A DNA stretch of 35,160 nucleotides, taken from the NCBI GenBank assembly GCA_031414595.1, contig JANNVX010000056.1, positions 1 through 35,160 of the forward strand. Reading direction: 5' to 3'. Shown piece after piece: positions 1 through 13,245 of the stretch. Below the pieces are notes generated by a model. That model searched no databases. It was not told the DNA's origin and was given only the letters and a program-made list of their open reading frames with translations. The DNA comes from Deinococcales bacterium (GTDB lineage: Bacteria > Deinococcota > Deinococci > Deinococcales > JAAFIG01). The position numbers were made by a program, and so were the translations under genes. Numbering within the stretch: position 1 is the stretch's first letter; each line of letters begins with the position of its first letter.

Positions 1-143
1 GGACGTGTTGCGGAATACGAAGTGGTATTGCTCTGATTGGTTTATGGAGATTGCTTGTGGTTTGCATAACCTTCGCTGTGCTTTTCGCAAACGGGCTTTG
101 CGGAAATCGAGCTAGTTTCTTATTTCCGATAACGTCTATTAAA

Positions 144-227
144 AGGAATCGGAGGGATTTGAACCCTCGAGACATCAGTCTTTCTTCTTTAGCAAAGAAG
201 TGCAATAAACCACTCTGCCACGATTCC
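144..227 (-). tRNA. tRNA-Ser(GCT), duplicate copy without encoded CCA
   Basis: Identical to 949-1032. GGAATCG/CGATTCC acceptor, CTTCT-TTGCTAA-AGAAG anticodon arm, long variable arm; followed by TTT rather than CCA. Confidence 0.8.
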
Positions 228-229
228 AT

Positions 230-347
230 TGGCGAGTCTGACAGGATTTGAACCTGCAACAATACGTGTTGGAGACGTACTTTTTGCCCCTTAAAGCAGC
301 ACCTGACGGGCTTGGGGCGCTCCCTTAGCTAGTCGGGATTCAGACTC
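230..347 (-). pseudogene. tRNA-Trp(CCA)-like duplicate carrying a ~40-nt insertion between the D arm and anticodon arm
   Basis: Matches 1035-1112 except that 42 nt (280-321) replace 2 nt, plus one D-loop substitution. Confidence 0.7.
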
Positions 348-569
348 TTAAAATTCAAGATTTACAACACTATCAGCAGCAAAATCAGAATTCTTGACTT
401 TCTTAATCAATTCAGAAAGGCGCATCGAAACCGCCATTGAAAACACCTGATGTTCTTCGCCACTTTGTTCTCGAGCCACCGAGATTGGAACACCAGAAAC
501 AACCACCTGCACACCTTTTTTGGTGATGTAAGTGTAATCAATTCTAGTTTCGGGAGCAATCACATTCAT
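348..569 (-). CDS. Putative antitoxin, YgiT-type zinc-finger-like fold but lacking cysteines
   Basis: 73 aa ORF with GAGG RBS; VVVSGVP motif resembles YgiT-type xxIxxVP; lies directly downstream of a DUF4258-like ORF. Confidence 0.5.
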   Translation of the reverse strand: MNVIAPETRIDYTYITKKGVQVVVSGVPISVAREQSGEEHQVFSMAVSMRLSELIKKVKNSDFAADSVVNLEF

Positions 570-597
570 GTTGACCTCGAGTATACGACTAAAGCAC

Positions 598-921
598 TTA
601 AATTGTATGAACTGTAATCACAATGTAGGAATCAAAAAACGAAACCTTGACGCGAATCCAACGCTTATCGGGAATCTGATACTCGAAATTAATTCCTGCC
701 ATACGAGATAAATTATTATTTGGCAAATCTTTAGAAACTGCTTTACCAAACAAAATAGCTTCAAACAAGGCAACTGGTGCAATATCTTCATCTTGGGCTG
801 CTACAAATGCGTGAGGATGAATTTTGATTTCCTCGCGCCATAGTGCAGTATGAATAAAATCCAATTCCCACTCGAGAATATCCGAAGTTGAAAAATCGAA
901 ACCAGTGGGTAAATCAGGCAC
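598..921 (-). CDS. DUF4258-like putative RNase toxin
   Basis: 107 aa; H-P-H-A...I....L.EAI..G and C-terminal IVITVH pattern typical of DUF4258 proteins; TATACT 5 nt before the GTG start. Confidence 0.6.
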   Translation of the reverse strand: MPDLPTGFDFSTSDILEWELDFIHTALWREEIKIHPHAFVAAQDEDIAPVALFEAILFGKAVSKDLPNNNLSRMAGINFEYQIPDKRWIRVKVSFFDSYIVITVHTI

Positions 922-945
922 AAGAAAGTATACATTGAAAATTTT

Positions 946-1032
946 TGGAGGAATCGGAGGGATTTGAACCCTCGAGACATCAGTCTTTCTTCTTTAGCAA
1001 AGAAGTGCAATAAACCACTCTGCCACGATTCC
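946..1032 (-). tRNA. tRNA-Ser(GCT)
   Basis: Cloverleaf with anticodon loop TT-GCT-AA, long variable arm, GGTTCAAATCC T arm, encoded CCA. Confidence 0.9.
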
Positions 1033-1034
1033 AT

Positions 1035-1112
1035 TGGCGAGTCTGACAGGATTTGAACCTGCAACAATACGTGTTGGAGACGTAGACCCTTAGCCAGTCG
1101 GGATTCAGACTC
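1035..1112 (-). tRNA. tRNA-Trp(CCA), atypical D arm
   Basis: GAGTCTG/CAGACTC acceptor, TACGT-CTCCAAC-ACGTA anticodon arm, G73, encoded CCA; A instead of U at position 8. Confidence 0.8.
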
Positions 1113-1117
1113 AAAAG

Positions 1118-1198
1118 AGGAAAGCAAGGGAATCGAACCCTTGAAGCATAAGCCCAGCCGTTTTCAAAACGGTGTCCTCGACCCACCGGACGCTTTCC
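1118..1198 (-). tRNA. tRNA-Ser(TGA), atypical D arm, no encoded CCA
   Basis: GGAAAGC/GCTTTCC acceptor, anticodon loop TT-TGA-AA, variable arm, GGTTCGATTCC T arm. Confidence 0.75.
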
Positions 1199-1200
1199 AT

Positions 1201-1273
1201 TGGAGACCTCGCTCGGAATTGAACCGAGACTCTTTGGTTTGCAGCCAAAGCCCATGCCGTCTGGCTCGAGATC
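1201..1273 (-). tRNA. tRNA-Cys(GCA)
   Basis: TTTGG-CTGCAAA-CCAAA anticodon arm, U73, encoded CCA; weak D arm. Confidence 0.8.
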
Positions 1274-1280
1274 AAGATTT

Positions 1281-1493
1281 TGGTGGAGGAGGCGGGACTC
1301 GAACCCGCATATTCGGCACTGTCGGTTTTAGGAAACCCGCTTCCTGCGGCAAGTTACAAACCCACTCGAGATTCGTCGTCTCGAGTCGCCAGCCAGTGCA
1401 TCCGGAACCTCCGACGGTTTTTGACCTGTGCCGCAGCTATTACGCTTACCGAATCCAAGTTTTGCGGTGCGCTCCCGTTTGCGCTACTCCCCC
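1281..1493 (-). ncRNA. 213-nt tRNA(Ala)-like RNA with a large structured insertion (possible miniature tmRNA)
   Basis: GGGGGAG/CTCCTCC acceptor with G3:U70, A73 and CCA; GCGC-AAACGGGA-GCGC D arm; GCGGG-TTCGAGT-CCCGC T arm; ~160 nt between the D and T arms. Confidence 0.75.
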
Positions 1494-1504
1494 ATGTGAG
1501 ATTT

Positions 1505-1582
1505 TGGTGTTCCTTCAGGGACTCGAACCCAGACTTTTCAGTGTCTTAAGCACTGCGCCTCTACCAATTGGGCTAAAGAAAC
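1505..1582 (-). tRNA. tRNA-Leu(TAA), short variable region
   Basis: CAGTG-CTTAAGA-CACTG anticodon arm, A73, CCA. Confidence 0.85.
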
Positions 1583-1583
1583 A

Positions 1584-1659
1584 TGGTGCGTTCGGTAGGA
1601 GTCGAACCTACAGATTCTCGGGTTTGAACCGAACGAGTTTGCCATTCCTCTACAAACGC
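1584..1659 (-). tRNA. tRNA-Leu(CAA), short variable region
   Basis: TTCGG-TTCAAAC-CCGAG anticodon arm, A73, CCA. Confidence 0.85.
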
Positions 1660-1686
1660 AAATCTCGAGGATTACCCAAGAATTTT

Positions 1687-1762
1687 TGGTACGCCGAGCG
1701 GGACTCGAACCCGCAAGCTCCTCGTTCTAAGCGAGGTGAGTTTGCCATTTCTCTATCAGCGC
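1687..1762 (-). tRNA. tRNA-Leu(TAG), short variable region
   Basis: CCTCG-CTTAGAA-CGAGG anticodon arm, A73, CCA. Confidence 0.85.
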
Positions 1763-1788
1763 TTAATTCCCTCGAGACTCGAGGATTA

Positions 1789-1865
1789 TGGTGTCCATGA
1801 CGGGATTTGAACCCGTAAATTCTTGTCGCTCAAACAAGTGACTTTGCCAATTTGTCTACACGGAT
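1789..1865 (-). tRNA. tRNA-Leu(GAG), short variable region
   Basis: CTTGT-TTGAGCG-ACAAG anticodon arm, A1:C72 mismatch, A73, CCA. Confidence 0.8.
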
Positions 1866-1902
1866 ACAGTGGAAATTTGGTGCATGAACCCATATGATTC
1901 AT

Positions 1903-1978
1903 TGGTGCAGATTGGGAGAATCGAACTCCCGTTATTTGCATGGCAAGCAAGCGTCTTCAACCACTAGACGAAATCTGC
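1903..1978 (-). tRNA. tRNA-Gly(GCC)
   Basis: GCAGATT/AATCTGC acceptor, loop TT-GCC-AT, CCA; discriminator A73 (bacterial Gly usually U73). Confidence 0.85.
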
Positions 1979-1984
1979 AAAAAG

Positions 1985-2056
1985 CCTCTGCTTGTGTGGC
2001 AATTCTTTAAGCGGTGAATTGCCCTTTGCTCCCGCTCGAGCAAAGAAAAACAGAGG
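1985..2056 (-). ncRNA. Unknown three-way-junction RNA element with complementary hairpin loops
   Basis: Closing stem 1985-1990/2051-2056; 8-bp hairpins at 1998-2023 and 2024-2045; loops contain AGCGG and CCGCT. Confidence 0.5.
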
Positions 2057-2076
2057 TGAAGACCCAAAAGGGTCTG

Positions 2077-2150
2077 TGGAGCAGAAGGACAGGTTTCGCA
2101 CCTGCGTCTCGCCTCGGAAAAGGCGCATCTTGCATTTAGAAGACTTCTGC
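2077..2150 (-). tRNA. tRNA-Gly(TCC)-like, 6-nt anticodon loop, GTGC T loop
   Basis: GCAGAAG/CTTCTGC acceptor, U73, CCA; CGCCT-TTTCCG-AGGCG anticodon arm; T arm GCAGG-TGCGAAA-CCTGT. Confidence 0.65.
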
Positions 2151-2151
2151 A

Positions 2152-2227
2152 TGGAGCAGTCAGTGGGAATCGCACCCACATTCTCTGGTTGGAAGCCAGA
2201 CATCTTAAGCTATTGGACGATGACTGC
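2152..2227 (-). tRNA. tRNA-Gly(TCC), GTGC T loop
   Basis: TCTGG-CTTCCAA-CCAGA anticodon arm, T arm GTGGG-TGCGATT-CCCAC, U73, CCA. Confidence 0.85.
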
Positions 2228-2228
2228 A

Positions 2229-2306
2229 TGGAGGTTTTGACAGGAATCGAACCTGCGTTCTTTTGCTTACAAGGCAAGCGCTCGAGCCAACATGAGCTTC
2301 AAAACC
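2229..2306 (-). tRNA. tRNA-Thr(TGT)
   Basis: GGTTTTG/CAAAACC acceptor, loop CT-TGT-AA, CCA. Confidence 0.9.
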
Positions 2307-2349
2307 ATATGGCGTTGCTATTTTAGAACTATTTTAGTATCATTTATCC

Positions 2350-2754
2350 ATGAATCAGATTCTTAATATCCAATTAATTTCAGGTGATCAAATTTTATTA
2401 AGACTCGAGTATCCAACGACTATTTCTCGAGAGCTATTACTTGAGCGTATCCCGCTTCTTTTCGGAGAAGTTAAAGGAGTAAATACTATGAAAGTACCAA
2501 CTGGTGTCTCAAAATCATATATGCAACTTGCTCGTTTTCTTTTACAACAAGAAAATAATGAAATAAAAATTACTTTTTCGCAGCTTGAAAAGGAGTGGAA
2601 TCAACCGTTGCCACGTTCTGCTCGAGTGCATAGAGCTTGGTGGGGAAACACGGAAAATCCGACACATGTCCATGCGAGTTCTTGGATGCTAACTGGTTGG
2701 AAAGTAGAAACAATTGATCTCGAGAATGAGGTTGTCGAATTTATTAGGAACTAA
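2350..2754 (+). CDS. Small hypothetical protein, antisense to the tRNA array; C-terminal domain with TF..LE.....LP.SA..H..WW.N motif (DUF7662-like)
   Basis: 134 aa, AT-rich ORF; TATCAT 6 nt before ATG; an alternative start at MKVPTG has a GGAG RBS. Confidence 0.7.
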   Translation: MNQILNIQLISGDQILLRLEYPTTISRELLLERIPLLFGEVKGVNTMKVPTGVSKSYMQLARFLLQQENNEIKITFSQLEKEWNQPLPRSARVHRAWWGNTENPTHVHASSWMLTGWKVETIDLENEVVEFIRN

Positions 2755-2768
2755 AAAAGTTTTGAAAA

Positions 2769-2844
2769 TGGTGGGTTTCCTCGGGTTTGAACCGAGACCG
2801 CGCAGCTTAAAAGGCTGCTGCTCTACCAGTTGAGCTAAAAACCC
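2769..2844 (-). tRNA. tRNA-Lys(TTT)
   Basis: Canonical cloverleaf, GCAGC-CTTTTAA-GCTGC anticodon arm, CCA. Confidence 0.92.
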
Positions 2845-2870
2845 ATGTGGGACAAAATCAGTCCCATGTT

Positions 2871-2945
2871 TGGTGATCTCGAGGAGAATTGAACTCCTTC
2901 CTGTCGGGTGAAAACCGCGTATCCTGACCATTAGACGACGAGACC
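2871..2945 (-). tRNA. tRNA-Glu(TTC)
   Basis: GGTCTCG/CGAGATC acceptor, loop TT-TTC-AC, CCA; imperfect anticodon stem. Confidence 0.82.
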
Positions 2946-2948
2946 ATT

Positions 2949-3024
2949 TGGAAGGGAAACTGAGAGTCGAACTCAGATTTGACAGCTTCAAAGACTGTTG
3001 CGTTACCAATTACGCTATTTCCCT
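2949..3024 (-). tRNA. tRNA-Gln(TTG)
   Basis: ACAGT-CTTTGAA-GCTGT anticodon arm, CCA. Confidence 0.88.
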
Positions 3025-3035
3025 GTATTTCGGAA

Positions 3036-3119
3036 TCTCGAGCAAGTGATGTATCACATACAGGATTTGAACCTGCTCTCCGTGAGGATAACCAATAACT
3101 GTGATACTTCGGCTCGAGA
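3036..3119 (-). ncRNA. Candidate Y RNA (Ro60/Rsr-binding stem plus tRNA-like T arm)
   Basis: TCTCGAGC-C-GAAG...CACTT-GCTCGAGA terminal stem containing the GNCGAAG motif; inner stem GTATCACA/TGTGATAC; T arm GCAGG-TTCAAAT-CCTGT; no full anticodon arm. Confidence 0.65.
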
Positions 3120-3122
3120 AAA

Positions 3123-3422
3123 TTAAATGCTGACTGGTGCATAAATGCGAACTTCTGTTTCGAGGCGTGAGGCTAATTTTCGGCGTTCGATTTCAAGGTC
3201 AAAATTGGTTTGTAAGTTCAACCAGAAACGTTCTGAATTGCCAAAGAATCGTGCAAGTCGCAAGGCGGTTTCGGTACTAATGCCGCGTTTGCCAAGCACA
3301 ATTTCGTTAATACGACGGGCTGGCACACTGATATTTTGTGCAAGTCGGTATTGGCTAAGTCCAAGTGGCTCGAGAAATTCGTACTGTAGTATTTCGCCCG
3401 GGTGAACTGGTTCAAGTTTCAT
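3123..3422 (-). CDS. higA: HigA/VapI-family antitoxin (HTH XRE), no adjacent toxin
   Basis: HPGEIL..EFL.PLGLSQY.LA....V...RINEIV.GKR.IS..TALRL.RFFG.S..FWLNLQ signature. Confidence 0.9.
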   Translation of the reverse strand: MKLEPVHPGEILQYEFLEPLGLSQYRLAQNISVPARRINEIVLGKRGISTETALRLARFFGNSERFWLNLQTNFDLEIERRKLASRLETEVRIYAPVSI

Positions 3423-3438
3423 GCTTACCTATTGTACT

Positions 3439-3514
3439 TGGTCGAGAGACTTGGAATTGAACCAAGACTTACTGTGCTTCAGACAATCGTGCAGACCCAC
3501 TACACCATCTCTCG
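3439..3514 (-). tRNA. tRNA-Phe(GAA)
   Basis: CGAGAGA/TCTCTCG acceptor, ATTGT-CTGAAGC-ACAGT anticodon arm, CCA. Confidence 0.85.
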
Positions 3515-3516
3515 TT

Positions 3517-3589
3517 TGGGTGCGGTGGTGGGAGTTGAACCCACCAGCCGAGCTTATGAGACTCGGCGCATCACCGGACGCACACCGCA
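3517..3589 (-). tRNA. tRNA with CAT anticodon (Met, or Ile2 if lysidinylated), reduced D arm
   Basis: TGCGGTG/CACCGCA acceptor, loop CT-CAT-AA, CCA. Confidence 0.8.
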
Positions 3590-3617
3590 TTAAAGGTTGA
3601 CGCGCACACCGCATCAT

Positions 3618-3691
3618 TGGTCGAAGATGATGGAATCGAACCATCGTTGCCTGCATATCAGACAGGTGTCCTACCATTGGACGAATCTTCG
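3618..3691 (-). tRNA. tRNA-Ile(GAT)
   Basis: CCTGT-CTGATAT-GCAGG anticodon arm, CCA. Confidence 0.88.
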
Positions 3692-3748
3692 TTTCTCCTC
3701 GAGTTATTAGGAGGTAATACTCGAGGGGTGCGCTATTTTTTAGCGCTC

Positions 3749-3824
3749 TGGTCGGTGCGGTAGGGGTCGAACCTACGACTTCTGCTTTGTAAGAGCAGCA
3801 CTCATACCACTGAGTTACGCGCCG
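3749..3824 (-). tRNA. tRNA-Val(TAC)
   Basis: CTGCT-CTTACAA-AGCAG anticodon arm, CCA. Confidence 0.92.
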
Positions 3825-3856
3825 TTAATCTCGAGAACAGCAAAATTCTCGAGATA

Positions 3857-3931
3857 TGGTGGAAAAGATCGGATTTGAACCGATAACCTTCGCTGTGCAA
3901 AAGCGCTGCTCTCCCGTTGAGCTACTATCCC
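3857..3931 (-). tRNA. tRNA-Ala(TGC)
   Basis: G3:U70, loop TT-TGC-AC, A73, CCA. Confidence 0.9.
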
Positions 3932-3974
3932 ATGTGTGAACTGGTTACTATCCCATGTGGGGGTTTAACCCCTT

Positions 3975-4051
3975 TGGTCGAGCGTGCAAGAATTGAACTT
4001 GCCTAATGTCCTGTGTCCAAAACAGGAGACCCTCCTTGAGTCTGACGCTCG
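3975..4051 (-). tRNA. tRNA-Pro(TGG)
   Basis: C1:G72, A73, CCTGT-TTTGGAC-ACAGG anticodon arm, CCA. Confidence 0.85.
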
Positions 4052-4059
4052 AGAATTTA

Positions 4060-4133
4060 AGATTCGGATAGGAATTGAACCTATGACCTTTGGCTTCGCA
4101 TACCAATGCTCGTTTCCACTGAGCTACCGAATC
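4060..4133 (-). tRNA. tRNA-Arg(GCG), no encoded CCA
   Basis: GATTCGG/CCGAATC acceptor, TTGGT-ATGCGAA-GCCAA anticodon arm. Confidence 0.8.
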
Positions 4134-4141
4134 ATGATTAT

Positions 4142-4218
4142 TGGTGAACCGAGCAGGACTTGAACCTGCGGCTTCCATGTTAGAAGCATGGCACTCTGTT
4201 CCACTGAGTTATCGGTTC
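4142..4218 (-). tRNA. tRNA-Arg(TCT)
   Basis: CCATG-CTTCTAA-CATGG anticodon arm, CCA. Confidence 0.92.
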
Positions 4219-4225
4219 TTAAAGT

Positions 4226-4301
4226 TGGAGAATCGGGCAGGACTCGAACCCGCAACATCCACGTTCGACGCGTGGCGCTCTATCCTTTGAACTACCGATT
4301 C
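4226..4301 (-). tRNA. tRNA-Arg(TCG), G33
   Basis: CCACG-CGTCGAA-CGTGG anticodon arm, CCA. Confidence 0.82.
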
Positions 4302-4331
4302 AGGTACTCGTGTGAACTACCGATTCAAGTT

Positions 4332-4407
4332 TGGTAGCCGCGAACAAGTGGATTCTCGAGGGGCGTAATCATTGGAAGTGATAACCCTCGAGATTCGGCT
4401 CGCAGTT
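4332..4407 (-). ncRNA. Second candidate Y RNA
   Basis: CTGCGAGC-C-GAA...CCACTT-GTTCGCGG stem with the same motif as 3036-3119; inner stem TCTCGAGGG/CCCTCGAGA; ends in ACCA. Confidence 0.6.
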
Positions 4408-4408
4408 T

Positions 4409-4483
4409 TGGCGGTTCTAACGGGAATCGAACCCGTATTGCCTGAGAGACAGTCAAGCATCGTAGCCGTTGGAACATAGAACC
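4409..4483 (-). tRNA. tRNA-Asp(GTC)
   Basis: CTTGA-CTGTCTC-TCAGG anticodon arm, G73, CCA. Confidence 0.87.
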
Positions 4484-4511
4484 ATTTTCATGGTGTCAAA
4501 CACAGACCCTA

Positions 4512-4586
4512 TGGCTGACTCGGTAGGGATCGAACCTACGACAACCTGATTAACAGTCAGGCACTCTACCTCTGAGTCACGAGTCA
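4512..4586 (-). tRNA. tRNA-Asn(GTT)
   Basis: CCTGA-CTGTTAA-TCAGG anticodon arm, G73, CCA. Confidence 0.92.
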
Positions 4587-4591
4587 ATAAA

Positions 4592-4673
4592 TGGATACGG
4601 AAGGATTTGAACCTCCATTGTCTTTTAGACGCTTGGGCTACAACCAAGTGCAATACCGTTCTGCCACATACCC
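4592..4673 (-). tRNA. tRNA-Tyr(GTA), no encoded CCA
   Basis: CTTGG-TTGTAGC-CCAAG anticodon arm, variable arm GTCT-AAA-AGAC, A73. Confidence 0.87.
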
Positions 4674-4707
4674 ATGTGGATGACTGGTATGTCATCCGTA
4701 AAGCTCG

Positions 4708-4909
4708 AGGTGTACGCCCCAAGCGTGTATCGTCTTTAAGAATAATCGTGATTACACCGTACAGTGCAACAGCATTCACGTTTTCTAAGGGAGAAAAATT
4801 TGGCATTCGAGTTGTCAAGGAATTCACTCAGAGACGAGTTCTAGTCGTCGCAAGCAGTTTGGGTGTTGGTGCTTCTCGAGGACACGAATTCTCGAGTTGG
4901 CGTACACCT
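4708..4909 (-). ncRNA. Unknown ~200-nt multi-branched structured RNA
   Basis: Perfect 11-bp closing stem AGGTGTACGCC/GGCGTACACCT enclosing several hairpins; fills the gap between tRNA-His and tRNA-Tyr. Confidence 0.55.
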
Positions 4910-4910
4910 G

Positions 4911-4986
4911 TGGGTTCATCGTCGGGAATCGCACCCGAGTTTCTAGGGTCACAACCTAGCGTCTTGTCTATTGGACGACAACGAAC
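4911..4986 (-). tRNA. tRNA-His(GTG), first gene of the array
   Basis: G-1:C73 pair, CTAGG-TTGTGAC-CCTAG anticodon arm, GTGC-type T loop, CCA. Confidence 0.88.
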
Positions 4987-5012
4987 ACAGTTTTTGGTTT
5001 GTTGCGGGGTAC

Positions 5013-5049
5013 AAAAAATTTGAGCCTATCCATTGCGGGTAGGCTCAAA
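5013..5049 (-). terminator. Intrinsic terminator/attenuator upstream of the tRNA array
   Basis: TTTGAGCCTACCC-GCAAT-GGATAGGCTCAAA followed by TTTTTT on the minus strand. Confidence 0.75.
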
Positions 5050-5068
5050 AGAGTTTGCCTGTTCCGCC

Positions 5069-5215
5069 TTACCTGATTTGATTTTCCAAAATACTCGAGA
5101 ATCTACGACCTTGCCATGTCCCTAAACCTAAATCTGAATTATGTTTCAGATTGGCACAATCGCTTGCCCGCATCGGGCGTGGTGCGTATTGTTTTGTGGG
5201 GTGAGTAAAGTTCAT
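5069..5215 (-). CDS. Putative 48-aa leader peptide (MNFTHPTKQYAPRPMRASDCANLKHNSDLGLGTWQGRRFSSILENQIR)
   Basis: Not in the ORF track; translated by hand. GGAGA RBS before ATG; stop ~20 nt before the terminator hairpin. Confidence 0.55.
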   Translation of the reverse strand: MNFTHPTKQYAPRPMRASDCANLKHNSDLGLGTWQGRRFSSILENQIR

Positions 5216-5273
5216 ATATTTCTCCGTTTGAGGTTTCTAGTCTCGAGGGTGAGGTGTTGTTTCCTCGAGCAGC

Positions 5274-5303
5274 ATAGTACCTACTGCATTCAAGTCTTGT
5301 CAT
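5274..5303 (-). promoter_or_regulatory. Putative sigma70 promoter of the leader/tRNA array
   Basis: ATGACA-18 nt-TACTAT on the minus strand, ~60 nt upstream of the leader ATG. Confidence 0.4.
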
Positions 5304-5510
5304 GCGTAGATGTGCTTAGTGTGGTACTAAGCCATTTGACGCGTGAGGGCTGCTCCCAAAAACCAATCCACCTGTCTATTTTGACATCTCCCATGCCTAT
5401 CTTGACCTCACAGCAGCACCTGTCTTGACCACATACGCGCACCTATCGGGCGTGGTCGCTTCGGGCTTGGGTCGCTAAAAGCAGAGAATTTCGGTCTTTC
5501 TCACCGAAAC

Positions 5511-5539
5511 AAAAAGACGAAGCCTAAGCCTCGTCTTTT
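5511..5539 (-). terminator. Terminator after rplA
   Basis: AAAAGACGA...TCGTCTTTT inverted repeat with a T-tract, 18 nt past the rplA stop. Confidence 0.7.
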
Positions 5540-5556
5540 ACTATCTATTTTAAATT

Positions 5557-6246
5557 TTAGCGCAAGCCAGCCGTGGTCACTTTGACACTTGGTCCCATCG
5601 TGGTGGTCAAGTACAAACTCTTGACAAACACGCCTTTGGCTGCGCCAGGCTTGGCTGCCTCGAGTGCCACTTGAAAAGCCTTGAGGTTTTCCTCGAGCTT
5701 TGCCGCGTCAAACGATGCCTTACCAATTGGAGCGTGAACCACACCAGTCTTGTCGTTGCGGAATTCGATTTGACCGGCTTTGAGGCTTTTGACCAAATCG
5801 CCAATGTTCAAGCCAACTGTGCCGCTTTTTGGGTTTGGCAACAAACCACGAGGTCCAAGAATACGACCCAGTTTAGAACCAATGGCTGCCATCATGTCTG
5901 GGGTAGCAACCACCGCATCAAAGTCCAACCAACCATCAGCAATTTTAGCGATTAACTCGTCGCCGCCCACAAAATCTGCGCCAGCGCCTTCGGCGGCTGG
6001 AATACCATCGCCTTTGGTCAATGCCAGAACACGAACAGTGCGACCCGTACCATGTGGTAGGGCAACCGTGCCACGCACATTCTGGTCGGACTTACGTGGG
6101 TCAATACCCAAGCGGGCATGGACTTCAACGGTTTCGTCAAACTTGGCACTGGCAAGGGTTTTAACAAGGGTAGTGGCTTCGGTAGCATCGTAGTTTTTGC
6201 TCGAGTCCACTTTGGCGGTCAATAATTTATAACGCTTGCCGCTCAT
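5557..6246 (-). CDS. rplA: 50S ribosomal protein L1 (true start MSGKRY at 6246)
   Basis: [36 protein letters not shown] and TTMGP motifs; ATGA overlap with the rplK stop. Confidence 0.98.
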
Positions 6247-6677
6247 AATGGTCTCCCTTCGATGGTCACGCCCATGCTGCGGGCAGTACCTGCCACGGTT
6301 TCGGCGGCTGCCTCGACACTGGCGGCGGTTAAATCTGGCATTTTGGTCTTGGCAATCTCGAGAACTTGCGCCCATTGGAGTTTACCGACCTTATTTTTGT
6401 TTGGAGCGCCAGAACCTTTAGCAATACCCGAGGCTTTACGAATCAGGTAGCTCATCGGTGGGGTTTTATAAACAAGGGTGAAGCTGCGGTCGGCGTAAAT
6501 CGTGATTTCTACGGGGATAATCGCGTCGCCTTGGTTGGCGGTAGCCGCATTAAAATCCTTGCAGAACTGCATGATGTTTGCACCATGTTGACCGAGTGCC
6601 GGACCGACGGGCGGGGCGGGAGTCGCCTTGCCTGCTGGAAGCTGTAGCTTCACAAAACCAGTAACTTTCTTTGCCAT
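6243..6677 (-). CDS. rplK: 50S ribosomal protein L11
   Basis: [23 protein letters not shown]...FCKDFNA...GTARSMG. Confidence 0.98.
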
Positions 6678-8601: not shown

Positions 8602-11600
8602 ATGAACTTTGCAGCACAACCCATGCAGTGGCAACAAGGCTCGAGTTTAGAGGCTTTGGAGTTGCTGCATCAGTTGACTTTAGCGCTCAGTGCCGAAGAT
8701 AACGTGACTGAGTTGCTAACGCGGATGCTCGAGGGAACATTGCGTTTTTGTGGTGGAACTTCGGCAGCCGTTTATGTCGGTTTAGCAGATGGTCGGCTGG
8801 AGATGCGCTACGGTGTCGGTCATTTGGTGACTCAAATTGGTCAGGTTTTTGAGGCGGGTGAAGGGGCGACTGGTTGGGTTTATCAGCATCAACAAGCCAT
8901 TTTGGTCAGTGACTATCAGGCTTCTAAATTTAAGAGTCACCGTTATGCCAATATGGATCGCTCGTTGATGGCTGCGCCGTTGCGTCAAGCGGGTCGGGGG
9001 TTTGGGGTCATCACCGTGATTTGGGAAAAACAAATTGGCGCATACCAAGTTGATCATCTCGAGTTACTTGAACGCTTTGCGGCTTTTGCCAGTGTTGCCT
9101 TAGAAAATGCGACTTTACGGGCGGCTCAAGAACGCCAAAACCGAGAAACCCAAGAACGGGCGGTGCGGCGCGACGAATTACAACATCACTTAGCTGATGT
9201 GATTGTGCGCTTAGAACCTTTTGAGGCACTGCAAGAATTGTTGCAGCGTTGTGGTCAAATGCTTGATGCGGCGGGCGGTTTGGCATTTTTGCGAAGCAAT
9301 ACTTCACCTTTAGAATTACTGGTGGATCAACACCAGAATAGTCTTTTTCATACTGGCAACGAACCTTTTTTACGTCTGGCTTTGCTGGGTAAACCGGTGG
9401 TGATTAACCAGTACGCGCTTTTTGCTGAGCGCATCCAAAGCCATGCCGATGCTGGAATAAAAGCCCTGCTGGCGGTGGCTTTACAACGCGGGCAAGACCG
9501 AGCCGGACTTATTTTTTTTGAACGCCGTCATGGGCTTCCTTTCACCCAAAATGACATTGACTTGGTGTTGCAAATTGCGCCTGTGCTGGGTGGTTTACTC
9601 GAGAATGCCCGTCTATACCTCGAAGCTCGAGCCGCTAAGACCGAAGCCGAACAACGGGCTGGTTTATTAGAAGCCATTTACCGGACGTACTTAGAACTGG
9701 GACATTCAAAGGATATTCGGGCTTTAGCACATGGCTTATTGCTTCGAGTCACTTCGGTGCTTGGGGCGGATGCTGGTGGTGTCTATTTACGAAATGGCGA
9801 AATGATTGAACTGATTGCCGATTATGGTGACCAGTTTTTGCCAGAGGCTCAGTTGGGTTATGGTGTTTCTGGTACGGTTGTGGTCACAGGGCAAGGTTTA
9901 CTGCTCGAGGATTATGCGACATCGGCTTATCATCATGAAACTGACCCTGGTGTCTTATGGCATTCGGTCATGAGTGTGCCACTGAGACAACAACAGCAAG
10001 TCATCGGGGCTTTGACTTTAGTGGATACCCGTTTTGCAGGGCGTTTTCGCTCGGACGACCTTGAAGCCTTGGAGCGCTTTGCGGCGATAGCAAGTTTGGC
10101 TTTTGAGAATGTCATACTGCTTGACGCAACAAAACAGTCAGAACAACATGCCAAAGCGCAAACTCAGCAATTGCAACTCCTGCATCAAGCCAGTTTAGCG
10201 GTTTCGCGTCATGCCCCTAAGCAGGAGTGGTTACACTCGATTCTGGTGCGGGCAGCCCAACTTTTAGGGGCAAATGATGGTTCGGTGTTTATGCTGCAAG
10301 AAAACGGTCGGATTGAAACGGCGGCGCAATTACGCCACGAGGCAAGCCTTGACCATGTTATAGACAAAGACCATGGTATTTCAGGGCAAGTGATTGACAC
10401 TGGTCTACCGCTTTTGGTGCAAAATTATCAACATTGGGAAGAAAAACCAGAACCCGAATTAGAACCATATTGGCAGTCGGCACTTGGTGTGCCACTCCAT
10501 ATGGGCGGTCTGGTGATTGGCGCTTTAACCTTGGCGCACACCAGTAATCCTAAACAATTTATTGAAGAAGACCTAGAAACCTTAGAACGTTTTGCAGCGA
10601 TGGCAAATGTGGCGCTGGAAAACACCGCCCTGCTCGAGACAGCCCAAATGTCGGCGGCTCAGAGCGAGTATCAAACCCGCTTACTCGAGGCGTTGTATCA
10701 AACCAACTTAGCTTTGGCAGGACAACTAGAACCCAGTGATTTGTTACAACAATTGGTGGATCGGGTGGTGCTGTTATTCAAAGCCGATTCGGGGGCGGTC
10801 TATTTAACCCAAGGACAGTCTTTTGAACGAGTGGCTTATTTTGGTAACAGCCCGAGTGTATCGGGTACATTGGGGCAAGGATTATCAGGCACGGTCATCA
10901 GCCAACAAAAAGAACGGATTGTTGATAATTACATGACTTGGGAAGGTCGGGATGTCGGACAAGACAACGAAGTGCTTCGTTGGAAAGCCGCCATGAGCGC
11001 TCCACTTTGGCGCGGCGATCAAGTGATTGGGGCATTGACGATAGCTGACACGCGCAGCAGCCATTTATTTACGCCCACCGACCTTGAAGCCTTAACCCGC
11101 TTTGCTGCTAGTGCCAGTGCCGCCTTAGAAAATTCAAGGTTGTTTGAGAGTCAGCGCCAAGCCGAACAACAGGCGCGTCTAGCCGAACAACAGGCTCAGG
11201 AACGTTCCGCCCAAATGGAAGCCCTGCACGAAATTAACTTAGAGTTGGGGCAGTACCATGATTTGGATTTACTCTTAGAGAGTATTCTCGAGCGAGCCGT
11301 GATGCTAATTGGTGGGGCGGCTGGTCGTTTGGATTTGCGGCAGCCCGATTCGGCATTCTTACGAGAAGCCGCGATTATTGGCAGTGAACCTTCACGATCC
11401 ATCGAATTAGGTAAAGGTGCAAGTGGCTTGGTTGCTCTAAACGGCAATTCTTTATTGATTGATGATTACCAAAAATGGAAATTTCGTTCGGTCAATCTAG
11501 CCAAAGCCTGGAAATCCGTGATTAGCGTGCCGTTAAATCGCGGAAAAGAAATCATTGGCGCACTCACCATTGCCGACGAAGTTCAAACAGCCAAATTCAG

Positions 11601-13245
11601 TCAAAATGACCTAGAAACTTTAGAGCGTTTTGCAGCCAGTGCCAGTTTAGCTTTAGAACGCGCCAAATTACTAGAAGACGCTCGGACAGCCGAATCAGAG
11701 GCATTAACTCGAGCCAGACAACTCGAGGCACTGCATCAGGTCTCTTTAGAAGTCAGTAAAAACCTTGAACCCGAAGCCCTGTTATTTAGTGTGCTTGAAC
11801 GAGCCGCCACTTTACTCGGGGCAAATGCAGGGGCGGTTTTTTTAATTGAACAAGATGAACTGGTTTTGGCGGCTGGCTTGGGCAGAGTTGCTATACCACG
11901 CATTGCCCTTGGTACAGGTTTAAGTGGGCGAGTTGCCCTAAACGGCGAACCCATTTTAATTGATGATTACCAAACTTGGGATGGTGCGATTTCGTCGAGC
12001 AGTTCAACTTGGCGCAGTGTTGCCAGTGTGCCTTTGCGTCAGCATAATCGTTTGATTGGGGCATTAACCTTGGCAGACACAACCCTATCTGGGCGCTTTA
12101 AGATTCATGACCTTGAAACCTTAGAACGCTTTGCTTCGCTGGCGGGTATTGCCCTCGAGAATGCACGGCTCTACATTCGTGAACGCAATAACTTACGCGA
12201 TGAAAAAATACGTGCCAGAATTACCCAAGAAGTAGCCCGTTTAAGAAGTGTTTCTGATTTGGTTAGGGCTGTTCTTGGGGTTCTCGAGGAGACACTGGGG
12301 TATCAGTACATCACACTGTACTTGTTAGATGGGCAAGTGCTGCGTTTACAAGGTCAGATTGGTGACACGACCCCGCATTTTGAAATGTCAATTCAAGAAG
12401 GTGTAACCGGACGGGTGGTACGCAATGGTCTTGCCGAATTGGTTTTGGATGGTCGAACCGACCCCGACTTTATTTTAGACTCACCAGACCGCACCTCAAT
12501 GATTTGTGTTCCTTTGCGTGGTTCACAGCATATTCTTGGTACATTAAACATCGAGTCAAGTTACCTACACCCCTTTAGTCAAACCGACCTCGAGATGCTT
12601 GATACCTTAAGTGTATCCATTACCACCGCCTTAGAAAACGCTTTGCTGCATGAACAAATTGAACGAAAGGCGAGTGAAATGGAATTCTTGCGCTTCCAAG
12701 CCGAACGCGCCGCTCGATTTGATACCCTAACCAATCTACGCAATCGCCGTGCCTTTGATGAGGACTTACAACGCACCTTAGAGCGCCAAGGCAACCTAGG
12801 TTTTAGCTTGGCGGCGGTTGATTTAACTGGTTTTAAGTTGGTCAATGATCGTTTTGGACATGCGGCTGGTGACCAAGCCTTGGCTCGAGTTGCCAAGGTC
12901 TTATCGAGCGCCCCAATACATCGAGGCAGGGCGCTGCATAAAACCTACCGCACGGGCGGTGACGAATTTATTCTAATCATTCCGCATGAGCAACCGCCAC
13001 TTGAACTCTTAATGCACATCACAAGGGGGGTCGAAAATTTAGATTTTCAAGATGGTTTACAAATTGGCTTAAATGTTGGTCTAGCCAATTATCCCCACGA
13101 AGCCAAAGACTTAGACCAATTGCAATCCTTAGCCGATAACCGCATGTACAAAGCCAAAACTGCTGGTAAGCCGTTCTTGATCGAAGATGAACTCGAAGCA
13201 CCGCCAATTCCACGCCGCCGTGCTTCTGATAAAAGCAATCAATAA
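8602..13245 (+). CDS. Diguanylate cyclase with eight tandem GAF domains
   Basis: Eight repeats ending in LERFAA.A..ALEN-like helices; DTLTNLRNRR, FKLVNDRFGHAAGD and YRTGGDEF. Confidence 0.92.
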   Translation: MNFAAQPMQWQQGSSLEALELLHQLTLALSAEDNVTELLTRMLEGTLRFCGGTSAAVYVGLADGRLEMRYGVGHLVTQIGQVFEAGEGATGWVYQHQQAILVSDYQASKFKSHRYANMDRSLMAAPLRQAGRGFGVITVIWEKQIGAYQVDHLELLERFAAFASVALENATLRAAQERQNRETQERAVRRDELQHHLADVIVRLEPFEALQELLQRCGQMLDAAGGLAFLRSNTSPLELLVDQHQNSLFHTGNEPFLRLALLGKPVVINQYALFAERIQSHADAGIKALLAVALQRGQDRAGLIFFERRHGLPFTQNDIDLVLQIAPVLGGLLENARLYLEARAAKTEAEQRAGLLEAIYRTYLELGHSKDIRALAHGLLLRVTSVLGADAGGVYLRNGEMIELIADYGDQFLPEAQLGYGVSGTVVVTGQGLLLEDYATSAYHHETDPGVLWHSVMSVPLRQQQQVIGALTLVDTRFAGRFRSDDLEALERFAAIASLAFENVILLDATKQSEQHAKAQTQQLQLLHQASLAVSRHAPKQEWLHSILVRAAQLLGANDGSVFMLQENGRIETAAQLRHEASLDHVIDKDHGISGQVIDTGLPLLVQNYQHWEEKPEPELEPYWQSALGVPLHMGGLVIGALTLAHTSNPKQFIEEDLETLERFAAMANVALENTALLETAQMSAAQSEYQTRLLEALYQTNLALAGQLEPSDLLQQLVDRVVLLFKADSGAVYLTQGQSFERVAYFGNSPSVSGTLGQGLSGTVISQQKERIVDNYMTWEGRDVGQDNEVLRWKAAMSAPLWRGDQVIGALTIADTRSSHLFTPTDLEALTRFAASASAALENSRLFESQRQAEQQARLAEQQAQERSAQMEALHEINLELGQYHDLDLLLESILERAVMLIGGAAGRLDLRQPDSAFLREAAIIGSEPSRSIELGKGASGLVALNGNSLLIDDYQKWKFRSVNLAKAWKSVISVPLNRGKEIIGALTIADEVQTAKFSQNDLETLERFAASASLALERAKLLEDARTAESEALTRARQLEALHQVSLEVSKNLEPEALLFSVLERAATLLGANAGAVFLIEQDELVLAAGLGRVAIPRIALGTGLSGRVALNGEPILIDDYQTWDGAISSSSSTWRSVASVPLRQHNRLIGALTLADTTLSGRFKIHDLETLERFASLAGIALENARLYIRERNNLRDEKIRARITQEVARLRSVSDLVRAVLGVLEETLGYQYITLYLLDGQVLRLQGQIGDTTPHFEMSIQEGVTGRVVRNGLAELVLDGRTDPDFILDSPDRTSMICVPLRGSQHILGTLNIESSYLHPFSQTDLEMLDTLSVSITTALENALLHEQIERKASEMEFLRFQAERAARFDTLTNLRNRRAFDEDLQRTLERQGNLGFSLAAVDLTGFKLVNDRFGHAAGDQALARVAKVLSSAPIHRGRALHKTYRTGGDEFILIIPHEQPPLELLMHITRGVENLDFQDGLQIGLNVGLANYPHEAKDLDQLQSLADNRMYKAKTAGKPFLIEDELEAPPIPRRRASDKSNQ

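What the first reader, a model, noticed from the sequence alone, without database searches (positions are those of the whole stretch)
3036..3119. Candidate Y RNA 1: Ro60-type bulged stem topped by a tRNA-like domain
Seen on the minus strand: TCTCGAGC-C-GAAG pairs with CACTT-GCTCGAGA, followed by an 8-bp stem, a GG-containing loop, a mini hairpin and a T arm with TTCAAAT. Known: bacterial Y RNAs share a 5' GNCGAAN(0-1)G motif with a bulged C opposite CUUG, often mimic tRNA, and bind Rsr/Ro60 (first described in Deinococcus radiodurans). Inference: an unannotated Y RNA inside the array that tRNA finders would call a pseudo-tRNA.
Basis: partly seen in the sequence, partly recalled or inferred. 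Interest (0 to 1): 0.82.

Follow-up and report, generated by a model that had tools for sequence, protein, structure and literature searches.

The report
Y RNA gene inside tRNA array
A small structured RNA gene hidden among spare tRNA genes belongs to the Y RNA family that partners the Ro60 RNA-quality-control protein in related bacteria, although that protein's gene was not found in this draft genome.

Summary
On the minus strand, 3036-3119 folds into an 8-bp terminal helix, a bulged C, an 8-bp inner stem, a GG loop, a mini hairpin and a T arm (z -3.48).

Within this genome the terminal helix is weak evidence. It is built from CTCGAG, which occurs 23,235 times in the genome.

Comparative data settle the identity:
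- The element is conserved upstream of tRNA-Gln in 8 related Deinococcales genomes, with compensatory changes.
- A covariance model built from it finds paralogues with the same GCCGAAG/CUUGC bulged helix.
- In 8 of the 9 genomes holding both a model hit and a TROVE/Ro60 (rsr) gene, the two share contig and strand, 0.25-5.5 kb apart. Two of these genomes are in another family.
- Two paralogues give sub-threshold matches to Rfam's Deinococcus_Y_RNA model.

It is therefore a divergent Yrn1-type Y RNA that Rfam and tRNA finders miss.

Caveat: no rsr was found in this 94%-complete assembly. The contig breaks at a multicopy repeat exactly where relatives carry rsr.

A second Y-like RNA lies at 4336-4407.

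Verdict: a new member of a known kind, in a setting (accessory tRNA array) not found in the searched library.

The parts
3036..3119 (-). Y RNA gene (Y1, tRNA-like type), the finding itself
   Evidence: Fold. R1 covariance model scores it 98.4 bits. Orthologues in 8 relatives.
3112..3119 (-). 5' strand of the basal helix (UCUCGAGC)
   Evidence: Nearly invariant among the 9 orthologues (6 of 9 pairs never vary). The helix covaries among paralogues and in another family.
3107..3111 (-). Bulged C (3111) and GAAG. Together with the preceding G and C this forms GCCGAAG, an instance of the GNCGAAN0-1G motif.
   Evidence: Motif definition from PMC4201824 passages. GCCGAAG in 8 of 9 orthologues, GCCGAUG in the ninth. 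An exact or near (at most two changes) form is present in all 34 model hits listed.
3100..3107 (-). 5' strand of the inner 8-bp stem
   Evidence: Four of 8 pairs show changes on both sides.
3089..3099 (-). D-loop-like single strand containing GG (GUUAUUGGUUA)
   Evidence: GUUA and GGU are invariant in the 9 orthologues.
3079..3088 (-). Mini hairpin (3-bp stem, 4-nt loop)
   Evidence: One pair has a compensatory change. The hairpin is absent in 1 of 9 orthologues (G002).
3060..3076 (-). T-arm-like hairpin (GCAGG UUCAAAU CCUGU)
   Evidence: Rfam's tRNA model aligns its T arm here.
3051..3058 (-). 3' strand of the inner stem
3036..3050 (-). 3' internal-loop residues, then CUUG and the 3' strand of the basal helix (AUCAC UU GCUCGAGA)
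   Evidence: CUUGCUCGAG is invariant in the 9 orthologues.
4336..4407 (-). Second, short Y-like RNA. It has the same bulged helix (GCGAGC-C-GAAU ... CUUGUUCGC) and the GGGUUAUC motif, and lies between tRNA-Asp and tRNA-Arg(tcg).
   Evidence: R1 with filters off: 29.2 bits, E 8.2e-6. MFE -28.1, z -4.10, 0 of 200 shuffles as good. Resembles G003 copy L027:11317-11392.
144..4985 (-). Accessory tRNA array that carries the Y RNAs. ARAGORN tRNAs and Rfam adds two more tRNA matches.
   Evidence: 41 further tRNAs lie elsewhere in the genome.
2949..3024 (-). tRNA-Gln(ttg). Its 5' end lies 11 nt downstream of the Y RNA. It is the conserved neighbour in all 8 orthologous loci.
3123..3422 (-). 99-aa HTH_3 (HigA/XRE-like) ORF inserted between tRNA-Phe and the Y RNA. 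Its stop codon lies 3 nt before the helix.
   Evidence: Shared with G006, absent at this place in G003 and others. A DNA-run contig joins 3118 to 3432 without it.
1..143 (.). End of a multicopy repeat at which the contig breaks, at the position where relatives carry rsr
   Evidence: 100% identical copies of 134-140 nt, 20 copies on 18 other contigs, 19 of them at a contig end. rsr follows tRNA-Ser(gct) in G003.

Best explanation
The element is a gene for a bacterial Y RNA of the Deinococcus (Yrn1-like) lineage. It is carried inside an accessory array of about 28 tRNA genes in an uncultured Deinococcales bacterium.

Shown here:
- The four-helix architecture is conserved, with compensatory changes.
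- The terminal helix carries an almost invariant GCCGAAG / CUUGC module with a bulged C.
- Members of the same RNA family lie on the same strand a few hundred bases to 5.5 kb upstream of the Ro60 orthologue rsr in related genomes.
- Some members match Rfam's Deinococcus_Y_RNA model below its threshold.

Inferred:
- The RNA is transcribed as part of the polycistronic array transcript. No promoter-like site lies next to it. In D. radiodurans, Yrn2, tRNA-Asp and Yrn1 are made as one precursor.
- Its 3' end is set by RNase P cutting tRNA-Gln 11 nt downstream. In relatives without the higA insert, its 5' end is set by 3' processing of tRNA-Phe.
- The bulged terminal helix docks onto the Rsr ring.
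- The tRNA-like head (GG loop plus T arm) recruits an effector such as PNPase, or tRNA-modifying enzymes, as described for Yrn1 and YrlA.

Whether the partner protein still exists in this organism is open. No rsr is in the assembly, and the contig breaks at a repeat where rsr should be.
For: Structure. MFE z -3.48. On 9 orthologues, 97.7% of cells are paired and 6 of 25 pairs change on both sides. 0 of 500 shuffles reach the observed values, and slid controls give 28-46% paired. RNAalifold recovers the same four helices on its own.

Conservation. The element precedes tRNA-Gln in 8 of the 11 related genomes that matched the region. Three of the 11 (G011, G012, G014) matched only higA or tRNA parts and lack it.

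Family. Model R1 hits 13 of 121 Deinococcales genomes, and TROVE hits 20 of 121. Nine genomes have both. In 8 of those 9 the hits share contig and strand, 0.25-5.5 kb apart. The ninth, G006, is split over two contigs.

Other family. The two model hits outside the window's family (G019, G103) lie 1.75 kb and 0.25 kb upstream of TROVE. A third locus (G063) shows the same arrangement in a local search.

The protein. The G003 protein is a Ro60: TROVE 76.5 bits and vWA_Ro60 218.3 bits.

Basal-helix covariation. The helix sequence differs among the 34 hits (CUCGAGC, GGCGAGC, UUUGGGC, ACUAAGC, UGUGGGC, GAUGAGC, GACGGGC and others). Almost all hits keep GCCGAAG and CUUGC exactly or with at most two changes, and most keep GGUUAUC or a close variant.

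Link to the known family. Two G010 copies hit both R1 (44 and 31.8 bits) and RF01053 (36.8 and 55.4 bits).

Literature. The motif definition, the within-4-kb same-strand criterion and the polycistronic Yrn2-tRNA-Asp-Yrn1 precursor come from passages of PMC4201824.
Against: - No TROVE hit, no vWA_Ro60 hit and no tblastn hit with the G003 Rsr in this 94%-complete assembly.
- Rfam YrlA and Deinococcus_Y_RNA do not match this copy, even at E<=10 on 151 nt or over the whole genome.
- The basal helix is made of the genome's iterated CTCGAG palindrome, so its presence and invariance inside this family are not independent evidence.
- Two genomes of genus g4 keep the element, yet 0 of 6 g4 genomes have TROVE or vWA_Ro60. 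The RNA can therefore exist without the protein.
- Neither the RNA's expression nor its binding to Rsr has been shown.
Confidence: 0.73

Rival explanations
1. Orphan but functional tRNA-like RNA. The element descends from a Y RNA but now works without Ro60, for example as an adaptor or decoy for PNPase, for tRNA-modifying enzymes or for tRNA-targeting nucleases, as part of the accessory tRNA array.
For: No rsr in this assembly. Genus g4 has 0 of 6 genomes with TROVE or vWA_Ro60, yet G013 and G016 keep an intact copy scoring 105.9 and 104 bits. Between those two genomes the element has 4 mismatches in 103 positions, like the tRNAs (94-99% identity), against 19 in 113 for the spacers.
Against: G012 and G014 (g4) have lost the element, and R1 finds none in 4 of the 6 g4 genomes. 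This fits decay after loss of rsr. The protein-docking helix stays invariant, which is easiest to explain if a Ro60-like partner or the CTCGAG-spreading process maintains it. The G013/G016 comparison is one close pair. In this genome rsr may simply be unassembled.
Confidence: 0.12
2. Decaying relic. rsr has been lost from this genome and the Y RNA gene is a non-functional leftover that has not yet mutated.
For: No rsr found. The type-2 Y RNA that G006 and G004 carry between the two tRNA-Arg genes is cleanly absent here, with only a 7-nt gap. This window has fewer Y-like copies (2) than the rsr-bearing relatives G003 (5), G002 (6) and G018 (4).
Against: The copy is intact, and its inner stem is fully paired, better than in rsr-bearing G006. 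A second Y-like RNA is also intact. The missing rsr coincides with an assembly break at a repeat.
Confidence: 0.1
3. Degenerate tRNA pseudogene: a tRNA of the array that lost its anticodon arm, with no function of its own.
For: It sits in a tRNA array, has a canonical T arm and a GG loop, and Rfam's tRNA model aligns to part of it at 17.1 bits.
Against: ARAGORN makes no call. The extra bulged helix with GCCGAAG/CUUGC is conserved across genera and is shared with paralogues that have no tRNA-like part. Linkage to rsr holds in another family. Five relatives insert 14-32 nt between the T arm and the 3' strand, which a tRNA would not tolerate.
Confidence: 0.03
4. Chance hairpin, or a simple terminator or stabiliser for the upstream higA-like ORF, formed by two copies of the iterated CTCGAG palindrome.
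For: CTCGAG occurs about once per 193 bp. The helix starts 3 nt after the ORF's stop codon.
Against: The element is present and conserved in relatives that lack the ORF and in a DNA-run contig that skips it. The inner helices covary. There is no T tract after the stem and no terminator call at this place.
Confidence: 0.02

Closest known systems
Deinococcus radiodurans Y RNA Yrn1 (Rfam RF01053 Deinococcus_Y_RNA)
   Same: Same order (Deinococcales, from record titles).

Same module order: terminal bulged helix, then D-loop-like strand, then a small hairpin, then the T arm. This matches the PMC4201824 passages seen and the RF01053 consensus printed.

The shared CCGAAG..CAC(G/A)GUUA(U/C) stretch is visible in the consensus.

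Both are encoded upstream of rsr together with tRNA genes. A polycistronic Yrn2-tRNA-Asp-Yrn1 precursor is described in a passage seen.
   Different: - It is 84 nt against a model length of 126.
- It has a 3-bp mini hairpin instead of the 5-bp 'anticodon' arm.
- The Rfam model does not score it at all. Only paralogues in G010 reach 37-55 bits, against a threshold of 80.
- It sits in an array of about 28 tRNAs rather than beside one tRNA.
- No rsr was found in this genome.
YrlA (Rfam RF02553; Salmonella, Mycobacterium and >250 species, Chen et al. 2014, PMC4201824)
   Same: It has the GNCGAAN0-1G motif near the 5' end and a tRNA-like domain with a T arm and D-loop features. Orthologues meet the 'within 4 kb of Ro60, same strand' criterion.
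   Different: The paper states that the orientation of the T and D arms relative to the 5' end differs between YrlA and Yrn1 (passage). This element follows the Yrn1 order. The YrlA model does not hit it. YrlA-like RNAs co-exist as separate genes with R1-type RNAs in family f2.
Long accessory tRNA gene arrays (L-arrays; Santamaria-Gomez et al. 2021, PMC8421152; Tran et al. 2015, PMC4758250)
   Same: It has more than 20 tightly packed tRNA genes that duplicate the dispersed set (27 in the array, 41 elsewhere). Small ORFs are embedded in it. Its chromosomal context differs between relatives.
   Different: 'Y RNA' occurs 0 times in PMC8421152 (term search). No paper in the library holds both a Y RNA term and a tRNA-array term. 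Here the array is interleaved with 1-6 Y RNA genes and, in relatives, ends with rsr.
Yrl1/Yrl2 of Thermus phage phiLo (PMC12135203)
   Same: These are Y RNA-like genes identified by a CGAA motif and a predicted stem directly upstream of a Ro60 gene in a Deinococcota system (passages).
   Different: They are phage-encoded. No tRNA array or tRNA-like domain is mentioned ('tRNA gene' and 'tRNA-like' occur 0 times). Sequence relationship was not tested here.

Membership tests
Bacterial Y RNA (Ro60/Rsr-associated ncRNA class) | Long stem formed by the 5' and 3' ends that carries GNCGAAN0-1G, with a bulged C opposite CUUG | tested here: met
   GCCGAAG with bulged C at 3111, opposite CUUGC. GCCGAAG in 8 of 9 orthologues and GCCGAUG in the ninth. 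An exact or near form is present in all 34 model hits, with covarying flanking helices.
Bacterial Y RNA (Ro60/Rsr-associated ncRNA class) | Encoded near (within about 4 kb) and on the same strand as a Ro60 orthologue (criterion of PMC4201824) | tested here: not met
   In this genome no TROVE, vWA_Ro60 or tblastn hit was found, and the contig ends in a repeat 2.9 kb downstream. For orthologues and paralogues the criterion is largely met. Eight of the 9 genomes with both features have them on one contig and strand, 0.25-5.5 kb apart. For G002 the Y1 copy lies 5.4 kb away, beyond 4 kb.
Bacterial Y RNA (Ro60/Rsr-associated ncRNA class) | Physical binding to Ro60/Rsr, and Rsr-dependent accumulation | not testable with these tools
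   Needs EMSA, co-IP or a Northern blot in an rsr mutant.
Bacterial Y RNA (Ro60/Rsr-associated ncRNA class) | A tRNA-like module in at least one Y RNA per species | tested here: met
   A T arm with GGUUCAAAUCC and a GG-containing loop. Rfam's tRNA model aligns the T arm and inner stem at 17.1 bits. There is no D stem and no anticodon arm.
Rfam RF01053 Deinococcus_Y_RNA | Covariance-model score at or above the gathering score (80 bits) | tested here: not met
   No match at E<=10 on 3000-3150 or in the whole genome. Related copies in G010 score 55.4 and 36.8 bits.
Rfam RF02553 YrlA | Covariance-model score at or above the gathering score (69 bits) | tested here: not met
   No match on the element. 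The best whole-genome hits (22 bits or less) fall on tRNA genes.
tRNA / tRNA pseudogene | Cloverleaf recognised by ARAGORN, or by Rfam RF00005 at 29 bits or more | tested here: not met
   No ARAGORN call. 17.1 bits in a truncated alignment.
Long accessory tRNA array (array unit: >=20 tRNA genes at >=2 per kb, PMC4758250 abstract) | Number and density of tRNA genes, and redundancy with dispersed tRNAs | tested here: met
   27-29 tRNA genes in about 4.8 kb. 41 tRNAs lie elsewhere, and only 3 array anticodons are not duplicated outside it.

The most novel reading that the evidence does not exclude
The accessory tRNA array, its interleaved Y RNAs and the terminal rsr gene form one transferable 'RNA-stress cassette'. 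In it, Y RNAs are matured for free by the tRNA-processing enzymes that cut their neighbours. The tRNA-like Y1 has a role that outlives Ro60, since it is kept intact in lineages where no rsr is found. That role might be as a decoy or adaptor protecting or surveying the spare tRNA pool. This would tie Ro60/Y RNA quality control directly to accessory tRNA supply, in parallel with the reported co-regulation of a cyanobacterial tRNA array with rtcB and with the Salmonella rsr-Y RNA-rtcBA operon.
Probability: 0.2. Interest if true: 0.7.

Novelty: new member of a known kind. Interest (0 to 1): 0.5.

Why it matters
Bacterial Y RNAs are few, poorly annotated and hard to find. This copy is missed by both Rfam Y RNA models and by the two tRNA detectors tried here.

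The comparative work defines a family of Deinococcales Y RNAs, with up to 6 detected per locus. They share a GCCGAAG/CUUGC bulged helix and a GGUUAUC motif.

In one uncultured family these RNAs are interleaved with a redundant set of about 27 tRNAs that ends with rsr. No paper in the searched library holds both a Y RNA term and a tRNA-array term.

This gives three things:
- a testable link between Ro60 RNA surveillance and accessory tRNA arrays;
- natural 'rsr-less' lineages in which to ask what a Y RNA does without Ro60;
- a covariance model that could improve annotation.

For the RNA itself the result is ordinary: a divergent member of a known family.

Tried and rejected
- Rfam at gathering and at E<=10, on the whole window, on 1-6500 and on 3000-3150, found no Y RNA family on the element. 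Whole-genome scans with RF02553 and RF01053 found only tRNA-like noise or nothing.

- Expression. Three metatranscriptome runs held part of the 761-nt stretch. Their contigs cover only tRNA-Lys, tRNA-Glu and tRNA-Gln of other strains and stop at 3024. This says nothing about the Y RNA either way.

- My first motif scan and the default-filter model search both missed the second Y-like RNA at 4336-4407. It appeared only with filters off.

- I first assumed that the rplA-array order was conserved. It is not. In G003 the array is flanked by glycosyltransferase and PLD-like/oxidoreductase genes.

- No rtcB-like gene was seen among the 10 ORFs scanned around the G003 array.

- A promoter scan gave 6 sites against 6.2 expected, none next to the element.

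- Earlier findings of this scan: nothing by place, sequence or words.

- The 2020 Annual Review on bacterial Ro60 (PMC10870794) is not held. The supplementary tables of PMC4201824, which list species with YrlA candidates, were not opened, so prior listing of related Deinococcales loci there cannot be excluded.

Full report
**What is at the site.**

- An 8-bp terminal helix (UCUCGAGC/GCUCGAGA).
- A bulged C.
- G.U and A-U pairs, then an asymmetric internal loop.
- An 8-bp inner stem (GUAUCACA/UGUGAUAC).
- A single strand with GG.
- A 3-bp mini hairpin.
- A 5-bp T-arm-like hairpin with loop UUCAAAU.

The minimum-free-energy fold is -29.9 kcal/mol against -18.8 +/- 3.2 for 200 shuffles (z -3.48). 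One of the 200 shuffles folds as well.

The element lies in a minus-strand array of tRNA genes. ARAGORN of them, and Rfam adds two more tRNA matches, at 233-303 and 4914-4985. The element starts 3 nt after the stop codon of a 99-aa helix-turn-helix ORF. It ends 11 nt before tRNA-Gln.

**A warning about chance.** CTCGAG occurs 23,235 times in this 4.49-Mb genome, roughly twenty times the expectation. The two 8-mers that form the terminal helix are among the commonest words in the genome. Because CTCGAG is its own complement, any two nearby copies can pair. Inside this genome the 'Ro60-type stem' is therefore weak evidence on its own.

All eight related loci of the same family that I counted have 6-8 copies per kb. 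Six loci from elsewhere have 0-2 per kb.

**Database models fail.**

- Rfam's YrlA and Deinococcus_Y_RNA models give no match on the element. This holds at gathering thresholds, at E<=10 on 6.5 kb, at E<=10 on 151 nt, and genome-wide.
- Rfam's tRNA model aligns only the T arm and inner stem, at 17.1 bits against a threshold of 29.
- ARAGORN does not call it.

**Conservation.**

- A DNA search of the 19 genomes of the window's family matched 12 including the window's own, so 11 relatives.
- Extracting the DNA upstream of each tRNA-Gln showed the element in 8 relatives: G002, G003, G004, G006, G007, G013, G016 and G018, spanning three genera. It was missing in G012 and G014, where another tRNA abuts tRNA-Gln.
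- G011 matched only the higA part and tRNA-Gln, and R1 found no copy in it.
- G003 and others have the element without the upstream ORF, so it is not an appendage of that ORF.

**Structure counted on the alignment.** I aligned the 9 sequences and counted the structure I had written from the window's fold.

- 97.7% of cells are paired.
- 6 of 25 pairs change on both sides.
- 0 of 500 shuffles reach the observed values.
- Slid controls give 28-46% paired.
- The inner stem carries most of the covariation (4 of 8 pairs).
- The terminal helix is nearly invariant (6 of 9 pairs never vary).

RNAalifold recovers the same four helices on its own.

Five relatives insert 14-32 nt between the T arm and the 3' strand, some as an extra CTCGAG hairpin. 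A true tRNA would not tolerate that.

**Link to Ro60.**

- TROVE (PF05731) matched 20 of 121 sampled genomes of the order, but not the window's genome.
- Covariance model R1, built from the 9 orthologues, matched 13 of the same 121.
- Nine genomes have both. In 8 of them (G002, G003, G007, G010, G017, G018, G019, G103) the RNA and the TROVE match share contig and strand, 0.25-5.5 kb apart.
- The ninth, G006, has them on two short contigs. Its rsr contig begins with the array's last tRNA-Ser.
- G019 and G103 belong to a different family and lack the CTCGAG excess, so their linkage is independent of that bias.
- A local search found three more copies just upstream of TROVE in G063.
- The G003 gene encodes a 559-aa protein with TROVE (76.5 bits) and Ro60-type vWA (218.3 bits) domains.
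- In G003 this gene directly follows the array's last tRNA. In G007, G018 and G002 the TROVE match likewise lies downstream of the array's last tRNA, on the same strand.

**A family of paralogues.** With default filters, R1 finds at E<0.01:

| Locus | Copies |
|---|---|
| G003 | 5 |
| G002 | 6 |
| G018 | 4 |
| G017 | 3 |
| G007 | 2 |
| G010 | 2 |
| G019 | 3 |
| G063 | 3 |
| G103 | 3 |

Listing the ends of all 34 hits shows a shared module. It consists of a variable 7-8-bp helix, then GCCGAAG, then an inner stem followed by GGUUAUC, and on the 3' side CUUGC and the complementary helix strand. Some copies depart by up to two changes in GCCGAAG or CUUGC, or carry only a variant of GGUUAUC.

The helix sequence differs between copies while pairing is kept (CUCGAGC, GGCGAGC, UUUGGGC, ACUAAGC, UGUGGGC, GAUGAGC, GACGGGC and others). 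That is the covariation the orthologues alone could not show.

Only one type per genome has the T arm. The others are short hairpins. [quoted passage not shown]

**Link to the known family.** Related loci are titled Deinococcales MAGs. Two G010 copies that R1 detects (44 and 31.8 bits) also match Rfam Deinococcus_Y_RNA at 36.8 and 55.4 bits, below its 80-bit threshold. The printed consensus of that model shares the CCGAAG..CACGGUUAC stretch, the T arm and the closing strand.

PMC4201824 describes Yrn1 as having D-loop features without a full D arm, a small 'anticodon' arm and a T arm. It says the arm order differs from YrlA (passage). The present element follows the Yrn1 order. The same paper reports that Yrn2, tRNA-Asp and Yrn1 are made as one precursor (passage).

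**The partner in this genome.** Three searches found no Ro60 gene in the 94%-complete assembly:

- the TROVE model;
- the more sensitive vWA_Ro60 model, which finds the same 8 of 19 family genomes as TROVE;
- tblastn with the G003 protein.

The window begins at a contig end. Its first ~140 nt recur at 100% identity (134-140 nt) 20 times on 18 other contigs, 19 of those copies at a contig end. So a multicopy repeat, presumably an insertion sequence, breaks the assembly right after the array's last tRNA-Ser, where relatives carry rsr. Whether rsr lies beyond it, was lost, or was not binned cannot be told from the assembly.

Two observations point in opposite directions.

- The type-2 Y RNA that G006 and G004 carry between the two tRNA-Arg genes is cleanly absent here.
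- A filters-off search found a second, intact short Y-like RNA at 4336-4407: 29.2 bits, E 8.2e-6, and z -4.10.

**Y RNA without Ro60.**

- Genus g4 has 0 of 6 genomes (79-92% complete) with TROVE or vWA_Ro60. A direct protein search of 4 of them gave only one chance-level hit (E 0.09, 11.8 bits, in G011).
- In G013 the array ends without rsr.
- Yet G013 and G016 keep the tRNA-like copy, and only that copy.
- Between these two genomes the copy has 4 mismatches in 103 positions, like the tRNAs. The spacers have 19 in 113.
- G012 and G014 have lost it.

This fits either slow decay after loss of rsr or a residual Ro60-independent role. One close pair of genomes cannot decide.

**Context.** The genome has 68 tRNAs. 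Forty-one lie outside the array and cover all but three of its anticodons, so the array is a redundant accessory set like the described long arrays (PMC8421152, abstract and passages). Its flanks differ between this genome and G003.

No promoter-like site stands next to the element. The region's count equals that of shuffles.

No paper in the searched library holds both a Y RNA term and a tRNA-array term. 'Y RNA' occurs 0 times in PMC8421152. Supplements of PMC4201824 were not opened.

Mechanism:
- Shown: a conserved bulged helix and a tRNA-like head.
- Inferred: co-transcription with the array, release by tRNA-processing cuts, Rsr docking on the helix and effector binding by the head.

It is a new, divergent member of the Deinococcus Y RNA kind, in a setting (interleaved with an accessory tRNA array) not found in the searched library. 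Its protein partner was not found in this draft genome.

Noticed in passing
whole genome; e.g. window 3036-3043, 3112-3119: CTCGAG is a highly iterated palindrome. It occurs 23,235 times in 4.49 Mb (5.2 per kb, about 20x expectation). The top 8-mers all contain it. All eight loci of the same family have 6-8 per kb, while six loci from other families or phyla have 0-2 per kb. A search for 'CTCGAG', 'highly iterated palindrome' and 'Deinococc' found 22 papers holding two of the three terms. None of the 10 listed held the phrase 'highly iterated palindrome', and by title none concerns such a repeat.
   Followed up: partly
window 4336-4407 (-): A second, short Y-like RNA lies between tRNA-Asp and tRNA-Arg(tcg). 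It has the same bulged helix and the GGGUUAUC motif. It was found only with the model's filters off. Fold z is -4.10.
   Followed up: partly
window 1-143: The contig starts with about 140 nt that recur at 100% identity 20 times on 18 other contigs, 19 of those copies at a contig end. This is probably the end of a multicopy insertion sequence that fragments the assembly.
   Followed up: partly
window 3123-3422 (-): A 99-aa HTH_3 (HigA/XRE-like) ORF without a toxin partner is inserted between tRNA-Phe and the Y RNA. It is shared with G006, absent in G003 and others, and skipped by a contig in DNA run X5.
   Followed up: partly
window 138-345 and 944-1113: The Trp-Ser(gct) end of the array is duplicated. 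The distal Trp copy is degenerate (Rfam 32.1 bits at 233-303, no ARAGORN call). The duplication brackets two small ORFs (348-569, 598-921), one of which has homologues between the array and rsr in G007 and G002.
   Followed up: partly
window 2350-2754 (+): A DUF7662 ORF (134 aa) lies on the opposite strand inside the tRNA array.
   Followed up: no
window 4219-4225 versus L010:172-261, L012:1894-1981, L020:33-117: Relatives G006, G004 and G002 carry a 'type 2' Y RNA with the same terminal helix but a different interior. In G006 it lies between the two tRNA-Arg genes. The window has only a 7-nt gap there.
   Followed up: yes
window 4914-4985 (-): A tRNA found by Rfam (47 bits) but not by ARAGORN sits at the head of the array, where relatives have tRNA-His.
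   Followed up: no
L023 (G103) and L021/L022 (G063, G019): In another Deinococcales family, sub-threshold YrlA-model hits (37-56.6 bits), R1-type Y RNAs and tRNAs all sit together just upstream of rsr. In G103 the YrlA-model hit (L023 2387-2496) overlaps one R1 hit (2381-2507), while two further R1 copies (2271-2366, 2120-2254) are separate.
   Followed up: no
window 8602-13245 (+): A 1,547-aa ORF with many repeated modules. Not examined with any tool.
   Followed up: no
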